A stretch of DNA of 64,000 nucleotides from Giardia intestinalis (Eukaryota): assembly GCA_000002435.2 (NCBI GenBank), contig CM018789.1. The stretch is one strand, 5' to 3'. Position numbers and translations under genes: made by a program. Within the stretch, counting starts at the first letter, position 1. Every line of letters begins with the position of its first letter. This document shows, in pieces, positions 26,686 through 28,407 of this stretch. A model generated the notes under the pieces. That model did no database searches, had not been told where the DNA came from, and saw nothing but the letters and a program-made list of their open reading frames with translations.

Positions 26686-28407
26686 TCATGGATTTGAAAG
26701 CATGCTTAGCTCCTCACTCTCCTCCTGTTCACAGTTAGGTGTGACACTATCTAAGAGTACAGAAGAGGTGTCAGTAGAGATCTCCGTTTGGCCCGAAGGA
26801 ATTAAAGGCATAACCTTCTGAGGCGCGTCTAAGTCGGAAATAGAAATGCACTTTCTGTGCTCTTTTTCCACGCGGATCCTTAGACAAATATATGTTCCTA
26901 TAGAGACGATGCTGATTAGCGAAAATACTAGAAGCAAGATCGCCATGAGAACAATAGTGGAGCACCGTACCGTAAGAAAGTACTCCTCTGGGTGTAGAAA
27001 GTCAGGGTATGGTGCCCAGTACATGACGACTACCTCGGCCTCTATATTGTACGCATTCACCCCCCGAGAGATCTTACGTAGAGGTCCGCCACAGGTGTTA
27101 CGCCTAGACCTGGCAGGATCCAAAACTAGCCAGTAGTCTCCAGTGACTTCGTCACTTCCCCAGCCCACAATCAGCACGGTGTGATTTGTGTTGCTAGCAT
27201 AGAAGTGGCGTAGAGAGCGATTCGCAGATGCGCTAGAATAGTCCTCCAACGATGTGCTGTCGTCCTCAGTTACAACGTAGCGTACGTCCTCTGTAGAATT
27301 TTCATCACAGTTATCCCAATCAGCATTTGCATAAACAGACGCAACGACAGGTCCATGTCGATAGATTTCCCAGATGATATCATCCTGTGCATTGGTGTTT
27401 CCATAGTATGAGCCTAAATAGCCATAATTACTGAAATAGTAACGCACTTCCGGTCTACGTGTCCTGTTTGCCACACAGCCCCCCTGATCATCAGGGATGT
27501 AATAGTCCGTTATAAAGATACCAAAGTCTTCTGAAAACTTTCCGACCTCGAAGGGAGTACCGCCCGCGCAGCCCTGGCCGTACTGGCTGCAGTCGAGGAC
27601 GTGGCGGGCGGAGAGGAACGTCTGCTGCCCGAGCGGGTCTGTCCGGTTGCTCGCGACCATCACGCGCGCCATCATGGCCGCCAGCGCCGCCTCCACGTAG
27701 CTGCTGTTGCACCCCCGGCCGGGGGAGGCGGGCGGCGCGGCCGGGAGGAACGAGGCCCCGCCGACGTCCCCCCACGACCAGGCCGCAGGGGGCGGGTCTC
27801 CTAGTTGGAGGTTCCAGCTACTTGCGTTTAGAAAGCTTGCTGTCTTTGCTTTTCTTGCAGACCTGCTCTTCGAAGAAGGACGTTGCTTAGGTACTAGAGC
27901 TGGTTTTCTATCCAACTCGGAAGCAACGTCCCTCTGAACATAGTGAGTTGTTACATTATAGTTAATCAAGGGTTTGATGAGCGAGCCCGTAAGGCAATAG
28001 AAGGATAGAGGCTGTATTCCCTGAGTTGTTCGCCACCCAAAGTGAATCTTATCGCACCGTGAGCTCACTTTATAGTGTGTGTCATTGTATATTTCAGCAG
28101 AAAAGGCTGAAATAACGTAGAAGACATCTGTTGCTATACGCAGTTCAAAGCCATGATTGCCTATGGGTGTCCATCTTCCTGTATATCCACCCTGACTCTG
28201 GGCCACACCATTATCCATCAGTGTGACATTGAGCAAGGTTACTCGGGAAGATAGAGACGCCCTCGAATTACAACCCACATAGTCGTTGCTTTTCAAGTGT
28301 CTATCTTTGGCAATAGTAAAGGACCAAAGGCCTAAATACTGATCCGAAAAGCATCTAGCTGATAAATATTCTGCAATCAATAGCTGAAAAAAGCATAACA
28401 AAAGCAT
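26686..28407 (-). CDS. Cathepsin C (dipeptidyl-peptidase I)-like papain-family protein, paralogue 1; nucleophile Cys apparently replaced by Ser; signal peptide and C-terminal TM helix
   Basis: Signal peptide 'MLLLCFFQLLIAEY'. Exclusion-domain motifs 'RCFSDQYLGLWSFT' (matching cathepsin C 'CTYLDLLGTWVFQV') and 'GNHGFELRIATDVFYVISAF' (matching 'GFEIVLNDYKWFAFFKY'). Peptidase_C1 core: 'VLDCSQYGQGCAGG' matches 'VVSCSQYAQGCEGG'. 'NHTVLIVGWG...DYWLV' is the His-containing 'H..L.VGWG..YW.V' motif. 'IIWEIYRHGPVVASVYA' and 'PLRKISRGVNAYNIEAEVV' match 'FKILRGqdhCGIEsevvA'. The position aligned to 'CGSCYSF' reads 'CNSSYVE'. C-terminal TM 'TIVLMAILLLVFSLISIVSIGTYICL'. Confidence 0.8.
   Translation of the reverse strand: MLLLCFFQLLIAEYLSARCFSDQYLGLWSFTIAKDRHLKSNDYVGCNSRASLSSRVTLLNVTLMDNGVAQSQGGYTGRWTPIGNHGFELRIATDVFYVISAFSAEIYNDTHYKVSSRCDKIHFGWRTTQGIQPLSFYCLTGSLIKPLINYNVTTHYVQRDVASELDRKPALVPKQRPSSKSRSARKAKTASFLNASSWNLQLGDPPPAAWSWGDVGGASFLPAAPPASPGRGCNSSYVEAALAAMMARVMVASNRTDPLGQQTFLSARHVLDCSQYGQGCAGGTPFEVGKFSEDFGIFITDYYIPDDQGGCVANRTRRPEVRYYFSNYGYLGSYYGNTNAQDDIIWEIYRHGPVVASVYANADWDNCDENSTEDVRYVVTEDDSTSLEDYSSASANRSLRHFYASNTNHTVLIVGWGSDEVTGDYWLVLDPARSRRNTCGGPLRKISRGVNAYNIEAEVVVMYWAPYPDFLHPEEYFLTVRCSTIVLMAILLLVFSLISIVSIGTYICLRIRVEKEHRKCISISDLDAPQKVMPLIPSGQTEISTDTSSVLLDSVTPNCEQEESEELSMLSNP
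27563..27801. repeat. Copy 1 of a ~239-bp very GC-rich tract, nearly identical (inverted orientation) to 37095..37333
   Basis: The reverse complement of 27563..27801 matches 37095..37333 base for base as far as I can read. The match runs from 'ggagacccgccccctgcggcctggtcgtgggggg...' to '...ctgcagccagtacggccagggctgcgcggg'. The flanks diverge immediately. The tract is far more GC-rich than the surrounding sequence. Confidence 0.85.

What the first reader, a model, noticed from the sequence alone, without database searches (positions are those of the whole stretch)
27563..27801. Nearly identical 239-bp GC-rich tract shared by two inverted cathepsin C-like paralogues (gene-conversion-like patch)
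The genes 26686..28407 (minus) and 36561..38057 (plus) share conserved cathepsin C motifs but are otherwise strongly diverged at the nucleotide level. They nevertheless share a ~239-bp tract, 27563..27801 and 37095..37333 in inverted orientation, that I read as identical base for base. The tract is very GC-rich, set in flanks and a window that are about 45% GC. It covers the homologous active-site segment of both proteins. The sharp identity boundaries and the foreign composition argue for a recent conversion or patch event between paralogues. An alternative is a GC-rich donor copy elsewhere in the genome. Simple divergence from a common ancestor does not explain it.
Basis: seen in the sequence. 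Interest (0 to 1): 0.7.

Follow-up and report, generated by a model that had tools for sequence, protein, structure and literature searches.

The report
Gene-conversion island in Giardia proteases
Two old, neighbouring cathepsin C-like genes of the gut parasite Giardia keep one 239-base stretch identical by repeatedly copying it between themselves, and that stretch alone has become extremely GC-rich, which looks like GC-biased gene conversion at work in a largely asexual protist.

Summary
Window 27563-27801 (-) and 37095-37333 (+) are identical over 239 nt, at 76% GC and about 95% GC3. The window averages 47% GC and the rest of both genes has 44-46% GC3.

The window is Giardia intestinalis WB. 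The genes are the encystation-specific protease (ESCP) and the adjacent inverted 'dipeptidyl-peptidase I'.

The same tract, with the same 5' boundary to the nucleotide, is present in five other assemblies from assemblages A, E and B. In each genome the two paralogues differ at 0-2 positions within the tract. Between assemblages the tract differs at 13-28 positions, and both copies carry every one of these changes. The flanks are only 39-48% identical in nucleotides and 33% in amino acids, and they group by gene rather than by genome. This is long-lived, ongoing interlocus gene conversion, not one recent patch.

At fourfold-degenerate sites, GC-to-AT differences are about 12 times rarer in the tract than in the flanks. 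G<->C changes are not depleted. The encoded peptide is enriched in Gly, Ala, Arg and Pro. GC-biased gene conversion is the best explanation for the composition.

The tract also puts Ser in place of the catalytic Cys in both proteins.

This is a new, clean case of a known process.

The parts
27563..27801 (-). Copy 1 of the 239-nt conversion tract, inside the ESCP gene. It encodes GDPPPAAWSW...CSQYGQGCAG(G), the first ~80 residues of the papain-like domain, with the active-site motif CNSS in place of CGSC.
   Evidence: Exact reverse complement of 37095-37333. GC 76%, GC3 0.95. Aligns to rat DPPI from residue 207, and the catalytic Cys aligns to Ser.
37095..37333 (+). Copy 2 of the 239-nt conversion tract, inside the dipeptidyl-peptidase I gene, in the same reading frame and at the homologous position.
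26686..28407 (-). Encystation-specific protease (ESCP) gene, cathepsin C-like, 573 aa, with a C-terminal hydrophobic stretch that looks like a membrane anchor. Keeps the catalytic His and has Ser at the Cys position.
   Evidence: 100% match to XP_001707889.1 / KAE8301385.1, G. intestinalis WB. Pfam PF08773 + PF00112. Alignment to 1jqp.
36561..38057 (+). 'Dipeptidyl-peptidase I' gene, the second cathepsin C-like paralogue, 498 aa. Ser at the Cys position and Tyr at the catalytic His position.
   Evidence: Exact match to XP_001707882.1 / KAE8301390.1. Pfam PF08773 + PF00112 on its cluster representative P0004. Alignment to 1jqp.
27802..37094 (.). The 9,293-nt segment between the inverted tract copies. 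It holds the 5' parts of both protease genes, which are transcribed away from each other, and four unrelated genes (485-aa ORF, 638-aa ORF, 932-aa ORF, ankyrin-repeat kinase). A crossover inside the tract would invert this segment and swap the 5' halves of the two protease genes.
   Evidence: ORF list. The same gene order and orientation are seen in five other assemblies, so no inversion has been fixed.

Best explanation
Proposed mechanism. The two cathepsin C-like genes are old duplicates in inverted orientation, 9.3 kb apart, on a Giardia intestinalis WB chromosome. Their sequences have drifted apart almost everywhere (33% amino-acid identity in the flanks). One 239-bp island of perfect homology remains. 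That island is long enough to act as a substrate for homologous repair. When one copy is damaged or forms heteroduplex with the other, it is repaired from the other copy without crossover (non-allelic gene conversion). New mutations in the island are therefore either erased or copied into both genes, and the island evolves as one unit in each lineage. Conversion cannot spread into the flanks because no homology is left there, so the boundaries stay fixed.

Why the island is GC-rich. Repair of heteroduplex mismatches, or an equivalent fixation bias, favours G/C over A/T. Over a long period this has pushed the island to 73-77% GC and 89-95% GC3, and has shifted the encoded peptide toward Gly/Ala/Arg/Pro.

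Side effect. Both proteins share the same active-site segment, including Ser in place of the nucleophilic Cys.

What is shown:
- identity of the two copies within each genome;
- concerted evolution in six genomes;
- stable boundaries;
- the GC step exactly at those boundaries;
- a substitution spectrum biased against GC-to-AT changes.

What is inferred:
- the molecular route (non-crossover repair of breaks or heteroduplex);
- that the bias arises from mismatch repair (gBGC) rather than from selection for GC.

My confidence is about 0.97 that recurrent gene conversion explains the identity, and about 0.65-0.7 that GC-biased conversion explains the composition.
For: 1. Concerted evolution.
- In WB (A), P15 (E) and an assemblage-B assembly (GCA_000498735.1), the paralogues are 237/237 identical over the tract codons. 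Flanks are 39-48% identical.
- Between lineages the tract differs at 13 (A-E), 22 (A-B) and 28 (E-B) sites, all shared by both copies.
- NJ trees: the tract groups by genome, the flanks group by gene.

2. Conversion is still ongoing.
- Three further assemblies show 2, 2 and 1 paralogue-specific differences. These are L005 (assemblage A type), L004 (B, metagenome scaffold) and L006 (B, BAH15c1).
- They also show isolate-private changes present in both copies. One site is T in both BAH15c1 copies, T in one copy of the ENA genome, and C in both copies of the third B genome.

3. Boundaries. The 5' edge is identical to the nucleotide in all 12 copies. The 3' edge falls within about 6 nt.

4. Composition coincides with the tract. 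GC is 0.72-0.83 inside and 0.42-0.58 immediately outside, in the 11 copies measured. GC3 is more than 5 sd above other ORF windows.

5. Fixation bias at fourfold-degenerate sites.
- A vs B, per GC site: GC-to-AT differences 0.049 in the tract against 0.598 in the flanks.
- A vs B, per GC site: G<->C differences 0.171 against 0.066.
- Fisher p = 3e-6 for A-B and 1e-7 for E-B.
- All codon positions give p = 4e-10 and 2e-9.
- Of 13 variable sites in codons with no amino-acid change, 8 are G<->C swaps. The constraint is therefore on GC versus AT, not on particular codons or a sequence motif.
- All 5 unhomogenised singletons are GC-to-AT. Such mutations arise but rarely persist.

6. Amino-acid shift. 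The G+A+R+P fraction is 0.43-0.47 in the tract. It is 0.19-0.26 in the homologous segment of six outgroup cathepsin C proteins and 0.21-0.25 in the rest of the same proteins.

7. Outgroup. A related diplomonad gene (P0006, locus L003) has no GC spike at the homologous segment (59% against 55%).

8. Context from the literature. GC-enriched genes were reported inside gene-conversion events between Giardia AI and AII (PMC12669663). GC-biased conversion has been suggested for Giardia's very GC-rich rDNA (PMC10123126).
Against: - Polarised changes do not show a clear AT-to-GC excess. The A lineage has 1 AT-to-GC and 0 GC-to-AT. The E lineage has 7 GC-to-AT and 0 AT-to-GC. BAH15c1 carries four private GC-to-AT changes in both copies. 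Any bias is therefore moderate, or has relaxed in some lineages. At 95% GC3, few AT sites remain to change.
- gBGC cannot be separated from selection for high GC with these data.
- Only six genomes from one species complex were available, and no outgroup with both paralogues was found.
- Short-read assemblies could blur which copy carries a variant. L006 has a run of N directly 3' of one copy.
- No conversion event was observed directly.
Confidence: 0.72

Rival explanations
1. Gene conversion keeps the copies identical, but the high GC is kept by natural selection on the nucleotide sequence rather than by biased repair. Possible targets are mRNA stability, translation, an embedded RNA or DNA element, or a sequence that promotes recombination.
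For: The bias against GC-to-AT changes is what selection for GC would also produce. The tract lies in the most conserved part of the enzyme fold.
Against: - The RNA fold of the tract is no more stable than dinucleotide shuffles (z = +0.44; 133 of 200 shuffles fold at least as well).
- There is no Rfam match.
- Synonymous G<->C swaps are frequent (8 of 13 variable sites in unchanged codons; elevated G<->C rate). No specific codon or motif is therefore preserved.
- Translational selection would not stop at the same nucleotides where paralogue identity stops.
- GC pressure has overridden amino-acid conservation, which is more typical of a non-adaptive bias.
Confidence: 0.17
2. Both genes are repeatedly overwritten from a third, GC-rich donor copy elsewhere in the genome, such as a pseudogene or gene fragment.
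For: It would explain a composition unlike that of either host gene. No whole-genome nucleotide search of Giardia was possible with these tools.
Against: - Searches of 5.8 billion proteins with each paralogue returned only the ESCP and DPP-I clusters as carriers of the tract. Proteins from WB, P15, GS, BAH15c1 and the two further NCBI assemblies (GCA_000498715.1, GCA_000498735.1) appear among the hits or cluster members.
- There are only two copies in the 64-kb window.
- The JGI metagenome scan found nothing.
- A silent third copy would itself need an explanation for its GC content and intact reading frame.
Confidence: 0.05
3. Assembly or polishing artefact. The two copies are really different, and the assembler copied or collapsed one consensus onto both.
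For: A short exact repeat can be mis-consensus-called in short-read assemblies. One assembly (L006) has a gap next to the tract.
Against: - Six assemblies from separate records all show the tract.
- Both WB proteins carry two NCBI accessions each (XP_ and KAE8 series), which I take, from my own knowledge, to be the two WB genome releases.
- Each lineage has its own version of the tract.
- Three assemblies resolve single-copy variants inside the tract.
- The GC-rich sequence is in frame and homologous to cathepsin C in both genes.
Confidence: 0.01
4. Strong purifying selection on an essential active-site peptide, with no conversion.
For: The segment is the most conserved part of cathepsin C across eukaryotes.
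Against: - Selection on protein cannot make all synonymous sites identical while the flanks are saturated.
- It cannot make 13-28 lineage-specific changes appear in both copies.
- 18 of the 31 variable sites lie in codons where the amino acid changes, so the peptide is not frozen.
Confidence: 0.01

Closest known systems
Long-lasting partial concerted evolution of paralogues by interlocus (ectopic) gene conversion. Examples are mammalian gene pairs converted for more than 100 My (PMC2720389), duplicated mtrA in methanogens (PMC4632066) and fungal ribosomal protein gene pairs (PMC6993855).
   Same: Paralogues are closer to each other than to their orthologues over a delimited tract. The flanks show the true, older divergence. 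Lineage-specific substitutions are shared by both copies. The process has persisted across speciation-level splits.
   Different: - The tract is very short (239 bp).
- It sits in paralogues whose remaining sequence is only 33% identical in protein.
- Its boundaries are fixed to the nucleotide across lineages.
- The organism is a diplomonad that is at least partly asexual.
- I found no published description of this gene pair as a conversion case.
GC-biased gene conversion (gBGC). From my own knowledge, it has been described for converted paralogues such as mammalian histone genes and for rDNA. Escobar et al. 2011 is cited in PMC10123126.
   Same: GC and GC3 are raised only where conversion occurs. 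GC-to-AT substitutions are selectively lacking while G<->C changes go on. Amino-acid composition is pulled toward GC-rich codons.
   Different: The bias was not measured directly. Polarised recent changes are mostly GC-to-AT. gBGC has been suggested but not demonstrated for Giardia, apart from a correlation of GC with inter-lineage conversion events (PMC12669663).
Cathepsin C / dipeptidyl peptidase I (MEROPS C1 family, exclusion domain plus papain-like domain), including Giardia ESCP as described in the literature (reviews).
   Same: Both genes carry the CathepsinC_exc and Peptidase_C1 Pfam domains. They align with rat and human DPPI structures. The literature describes ESCP as a membrane protein of lysosome-like peripheral vacuoles (PMC3423367).
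   Different: The catalytic Cys is Ser in both paralogues in all six genomes. All six outgroup proteins keep CGSC. The DPP-I paralogue also has Tyr at the catalytic His. Neither is a canonical cysteine peptidase by sequence.

Membership tests
Interlocus gene conversion / concerted evolution | Within the tract, paralogues of one genome are more similar to each other than to their orthologues in other lineages | tested here: met
   Identity is 100% within the genome, against 94.5%, 90.7% and 88.2% between assemblages. The tract tree groups by genome.
Interlocus gene conversion / concerted evolution | Outside the tract the genes show the older, orthologue-wise relationship | tested here: met
   Flanks are 39-48% identical between paralogues and 72-88% identical between orthologues. 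The flank tree has separate ESCP and DPP-I clades, each (B,(E,A)).
Interlocus gene conversion / concerted evolution | Identity extends to synonymous sites, and lineage-specific or polymorphic substitutions are shared between copies | tested here: met
   There are 0 synonymous differences within genomes. All 13, 22 and 28 inter-lineage differences are shared by both copies. One polymorphism is seen in both copies, one copy or neither copy in three B isolates.
Interlocus gene conversion / concerted evolution | Direct observation of a non-reciprocal transfer event | not testable with these tools
   Needs marked copies or mutation-accumulation lines with flank-anchored sequencing.
GC-biased gene conversion | GC and GC3 excess confined to the converted tract | tested here: met
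   GC3 is 0.89-0.95 in the tract and 0.39-0.46 in the rest of the genes. GC steps at both boundaries in 11 copies. The tract is an outlier among 17,030 ORF windows.
GC-biased gene conversion | Deficit of GC-to-AT substitutions relative to GC-conservative ones at neutral sites | tested here: met
   At fourfold sites the ratio of G<->C to GC<->AT differences is 7:3 in the tract and 8:125 in the flanks for A-B (p = 3e-6). For E-B it is 8:3 against 5:113 (p = 1e-7).
GC-biased gene conversion | Excess of AT-to-GC over GC-to-AT among polarised recent substitutions, or in frequency spectra | tested here: inconclusive
   The A lineage has 1 AT-to-GC and 0 GC-to-AT. The E lineage has 0 AT-to-GC and 7 GC-to-AT. 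Few AT sites remain and no population sample was available.
GC-biased gene conversion | Measured transmission bias toward G/C in heteroduplex repair | not testable with these tools
   Requires experiments or pedigree or clonal-line data.
Cathepsin C (dipeptidyl peptidase I), active cysteine peptidase | Exclusion domain plus papain-like domain | tested here: met
   PF08773 + PF00112 on both paralogue clusters. Best PDB matches are rat and human DPPI.
Cathepsin C (dipeptidyl peptidase I), active cysteine peptidase | Catalytic Cys in the CGSC motif | tested here: not met
   'CgSCy' of 1jqp aligns to 'CnSSy' in both paralogues. The same holds in assemblages A, E and B. Six outgroups keep CGSC.
Cathepsin C (dipeptidyl peptidase I), active cysteine peptidase | Catalytic His | tested here: inconclusive
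   ESCP keeps it (TNHTVLIVGWG against TNHAVLLVGYG). The DPP-I paralogue has Tyr there (VSYGVVIIGWG).

The most novel reading that the evidence does not exclude
The perfect inverted repeat may be kept for a function of its own. One possibility is a site for occasional crossover that inverts the 9.3-kb segment. That would swap the promoters and N-terminal exclusion domains between the two protease genes, giving an in-frame domain-swap switch. A second possibility is a source of a 239-bp double-stranded RNA, formed when a read-through transcript spans both copies, that co-silences both genes. In either case conversion and the GC bias would serve to keep the repeat perfect.
Probability: 0.04. Interest if true: 0.8.

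Novelty: new member of a known kind. Interest (0 to 1): 0.5.

Why it matters
**For Giardia biology.** The locus is a small natural reporter of homologous repair in an organism whose sexuality and recombination are still debated.
- Conversion between two marked loci 9.3 kb apart has run through the whole radiation of assemblages A, E and B. It continues within assemblages, including WB, which I know to belong to sub-assemblage AI, the lineage reported as asexual (PMC12669663).
- The rate and any G/C bias could be measured directly by flank-anchored amplicon sequencing.

**For molecular evolution.** This is an unusually clean case of a self-limiting homology island.
- The boundaries are fixed to the nucleotide.
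- GC3 is 95% against a 45% background.
- The amino-acid composition has visibly been dragged along.

**For the protease field.** ESCP is a much-cited encystation enzyme.
- Its active-site segment is shared base for base with a neighbouring gene.
- That segment encodes Ser, not Cys, at the nucleophile position.
- Probes, antisense or RNAi constructs, primers and peptide antibodies aimed at this region will hit both genes.
- The assumed cysteine-protease chemistry deserves a direct test.

**For phylogenetics and genotyping.** Gene trees that include this segment will be misleading.

Tried and rejected
- **RNA structure.** Folding the tract gave z = +0.44 against shuffles. Rfam found nothing in the tract at gathering thresholds. 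A structured-RNA explanation was dropped.
- **More lineages or a third copy.**
  - An exact-match scan of the JGI metagenome contigs with a 23-nt core conserved in A, E and B found nothing.
  - All three protein searches returned no third carrier of the tract and no second Giardia species.
  - No G. muris homologue appeared.
  - The nearest outgroup is P0006, from Logan run SRR31929897 (locus L003, 53% GC). It is an unidentified diplomonad that groups with a Hexamita protein. I use it only as an outgroup and do not call it G. muris.
- **Literature.** Eight searches found no paper describing this tract or concerted evolution of these two genes.
  - DuBois et al. 2008 (JBC) could not be opened by DOI or PMC id. 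I recalled that it might comment on the ESCP active site, but that recollection is unverified and I do not use it.
  - The supplementary gene lists of PMC12669663 are not held.
- **Polarising substitutions.** With B as outgroup this gave too few events to show an AT-to-GC excess.
- **Within-assemblage diversity.** The tract and flanks show similar levels, 0-3% against 1-5%. This neither helps nor hurts the argument. The ESCP downstream comparison for BAH15c1 is distorted by the assembly gap.
- **Purifying selection alone and assembly artefact.** Both were considered and rejected; see the rival explanations.
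Full report
**1. The observation**

Window 27563-27801 on the minus strand equals 37095-37333 on the plus strand at all 239 positions.

- The repeat finder gives 242-nt arms. That figure includes one mismatch (27562 C against 37334 T) followed by two matching bases.
- This is the only repeat of at least 40 nt in the 64-kb window.
- A 40-mer from the tract occurs exactly twice, against none in shuffles.
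- The 242-nt arm is 76.4% GC and the window is 47.3% GC. For 100-nt windows the mean is 0.473 and the sd is 0.061.
- GC3 of the tract is 0.95-0.975. Across 17,030 windows of 79 codons in 28 long ORFs of the window the mean is 0.48, the sd 0.09 and the 99th percentile 0.70.
- Outside the tract the codon-aligned genes are 42-46% identical in nucleotides.

**2. What the genes are**

The window comes from Giardia intestinalis (duodenalis) WB.

| Window coordinates | Strand | Product | Deposited protein |
|---|---|---|---|
| 26686-28407 | - | 'Encystation-specific protease' (ESCP) | identical to XP_001707889.1 / KAE8301385.1 |
| 36561-38057 | + | 'Dipeptidyl-peptidase I' | identical to XP_001707882.1 / KAE8301390.1 |

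- Both paralogue clusters carry the cathepsin C exclusion domain and the papain-like domain. Their best structural relatives are rat and human dipeptidyl peptidase I.
- The two genes point away from each other. Four unrelated genes lie between them.
- The tract starts at the N-terminal end of the region that aligns with the papain-like domain (rat DPPI residue 207) and runs through the active-site helix to the GCxGG motif.

**3. The decisive comparison**

I fetched the same locus from five other assemblies.

| Genome | Locus | Record | Assemblage | Paralogue differences in the 239-nt tract |
|---|---|---|---|---|
| WB | window | - | A | 0 |
| P15 | L001 | GCA_000182665.1 | E | 0 |
| assemblage-B assembly | L002 | GCA_000498735.1 | B | 0 |
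| ENA metagenome scaffold | L004 | ERZ28615481 | B | 2 |
| assemblage-A-type assembly | L005 | GCA_000498715.1 | A | 2 |
| BAH15c1 | L006 | GCA_001543975.1 | B | 1 |

I believe they are GS_B and DH, from my own knowledge.
- All six genomes have the two genes in the same inverted arrangement, with the same genes between them.
- Between assemblages the tract differs at 13 (A-E), 22 (A-B) and 28 (E-B) of 237 positions. Both paralogues of a genome carry every one of these differences.
- The flanks behave in the opposite way. They are 72-88% identical between orthologues and 39-48% identical between paralogues.
- Neighbour-joining trees say the same. The flanks give an ESCP clade and a DPP-I clade, each (B,(E,A)). 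The tract groups the two genes of each genome together.
- Within assemblage B, isolate-private substitutions are again present in both copies. One site is T in both BAH15c1 copies, T in one copy of the ENA genome, and C in both copies of the third B genome.
- The 5' edge of identity is at the same nucleotide in all twelve copies. The 3' edge varies by at most about six bases.

This is concerted evolution by recurrent interlocus gene conversion. It is older than the split of assemblages A, E and B, and it is still active.

The duplication itself is much older. The flanks are 33% identical in protein. That is about as far apart as either paralogue is from cathepsin C of other diplomonads (29-33%).

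**4. Why the tract is GC-rich**

*GC tracks identity.* GC is 0.42-0.58 in the 60 nt outside each boundary and 0.72-0.83 inside, in the eleven copies measured.

*The substitution pattern is biased.* I compared differences at fourfold-degenerate third positions, where protein selection does not act.

| Assemblage pair | Difference per GC site | Tract | Flanks |
|---|---|---|---|
| A vs B | GC-to-AT | 0.049 | 0.598 |
| A vs B | G<->C | 0.171 | 0.066 |
| E vs B | GC-to-AT | 0.028 | 0.600 |
| E vs B | G<->C | 0.222 | 0.050 |

- Fisher tests of G<->C against GC<->AT differences give p = 3e-6 for A-B and p = 1e-7 for E-B.
- Using all codon positions gives p = 4e-10 and 2e-9.
- The tract's slower divergence (5.5-11.8% against 12-28% in the flanks) is therefore not a low mutation rate or general constraint. 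It is a specific failure of GC-to-AT changes to persist.
- Eight of the thirteen variable sites in codons with unchanged amino acids are G<->C swaps. No particular codon or motif is being preserved.
- All five variants still confined to one copy are GC-to-AT. Such mutations do arise.

*The protein has been dragged along.* Gly+Ala+Arg+Pro make up 43-47% of the tract peptide. The figure is 19-26% in the homologous segment of six outgroup proteins and 21-25% in the rest of the same Giardia proteins.

*The outgroup lacks the spike.* A related diplomonad gene has no GC spike at this position (59% against 55%).

Together this is the pattern expected from GC-biased gene conversion.

A rough calculation (my inference) gives the strength needed. 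If flank GC3 of about 0.44 is the mutational equilibrium, a population-scaled bias of about 3 would give GC3 of about 0.95.

Two published observations make this plausible in Giardia.
- Genes inside AI/AII conversion events are GC-enriched (PMC12669663).
- GC-biased conversion has been proposed for the very GC-rich rDNA (PMC10123126).

**5. Caveats on the GC-bias step**

- Polarised recent changes are few and mostly GC-to-AT. The P15 lineage has seven. BAH15c1 has four private ones present in both copies.
- Any bias is therefore moderate or has weakened in some lineages.
- Selection for high GC cannot be told apart from biased repair with these data.
- Short-read assemblies may blur which copy carries a variant. 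L006 has an N run directly beside one copy.
- I put about 0.97 on recurrent conversion and about 0.65-0.7 on gBGC as the cause of the composition.

**6. How it probably works (inferred)**

- The 239-bp island is the only homology left between the genes. From general knowledge, that is near the length needed for efficient homologous repair.
- Repair of one copy from the other without crossover either erases a new mutation or copies it into both genes.
- Heteroduplex cannot extend into the unrelated flanks, so the edges stay put.
- The inverted orientation avoids deletions between the repeats.
- A crossover would invert the 9.3-kb segment and swap the 5' halves of the two genes in frame. None of the six assemblies shows this.

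**7. Rivals**

- *A third GC-rich donor copy.* Protein searches with both paralogues found the tract only in these two families. The metagenome scan found nothing. A whole-genome nucleotide search was not possible.
- *A structured RNA or known RNA family.* There is no excess folding stability and no Rfam hit.
- *Purifying selection alone.* This is refuted by the synonymous identity and by the changes shared between copies.
- *Assembly artefact.* This is refuted by six assemblies, each with its own version of the tract. Three of them also resolve single-copy variants. Both WB proteins additionally carry accessions of two NCBI series.

**8. A functional side effect**

- In both paralogues and all assemblages the motif CGSC reads CNSS. 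The catalytic Cys of rat DPPI aligns with Ser. All six outgroups keep CGSC.
- ESCP keeps the catalytic His. The DPP-I paralogue has Tyr there.
- Because the change lies inside the tract, conversion guarantees that both genes carry it.
- Reviews still describe ESCP as a cathepsin C-like cysteine protease involved in cyst-wall protein processing, with GlCP2 now given the larger role.

**9. Novelty**

- Concerted evolution and gBGC are well known.
- I found no description of this gene pair as a conversion case.
- I file it as a new member of a known kind. It is of moderate interest as a very clean example and as a possible reporter of recombination in Giardia.

Noticed in passing
window 27563-27801 and 37095-37333 (motif at about 27700-27712 / 37184-37198): Both cathepsin C-like proteins have Ser where the catalytic Cys should be (CNSS instead of CGSC). 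This holds in assemblages A, E and B. Six outgroup cathepsin C proteins keep CGSC. The DPP-I paralogue also has Tyr at the catalytic His position, whereas ESCP keeps His.
   Followed up: partly
window 53206-53289 (-): ARAGORN calls this tRNA gene tRNA-Leu(tag), 84 nt. Read by eye, it has the acceptor, D and T arms of a eukaryotic tRNA-Tyr, with anticodon GTA at positions 34-36 and an 11-nt intron after position 37. The Leu call is probably wrong.
   Followed up: partly
window 52980-53205 (about 70% GC; C-rich on the minus strand) and 53334-53499 (65% GC): This is the second GC-rich island of the window. The first part lies directly 3' of the tRNA and overlaps the Pro/Arg-rich start of the long minus-strand ORF (ATG-defined coordinates 50792-53197). 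That stretch looks like translated GC-rich non-coding DNA. The second part covers the 5' end of an ARF-like GTPase gene (53329-53919 +). There is no Rfam match other than the tRNA and no repeat partner in the window. It remains unexplained.
   Followed up: partly
window 55400-55588 (+): Giardia RNase MRP RNA gene (Rfam RF02472, 239.5 bits, full length).
   Followed up: no
L002 12833-16731 compared with window 21671-25741 (-): The family-B DNA polymerase gene next to the locus is one ORF in WB and P15. In the assemblage-B assembly GCA_000498735.1 it is called as two ORFs (485 + 817 aa). This is probably a frameshift or a sequencing error in that assembly.
   Followed up: no
L006 just below 1040 (3' of the ESCP copy of the tract): The BAH15c1 assembly has a run of N immediately after the ESCP copy of the tract, and its ESCP gene is called shorter (557 aa). 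The assembler evidently had trouble at this repeat.
   Followed up: no
window 28605-30062 (+) and 30011-31927 (-): Two convergent long ORFs overlap by 52 nt at their 3' ends. Both are called as genes in P15 and the B assemblies. The 485-aa ORF is broken into small ORFs in the ENA metagenome scaffold (L004).
   Followed up: no
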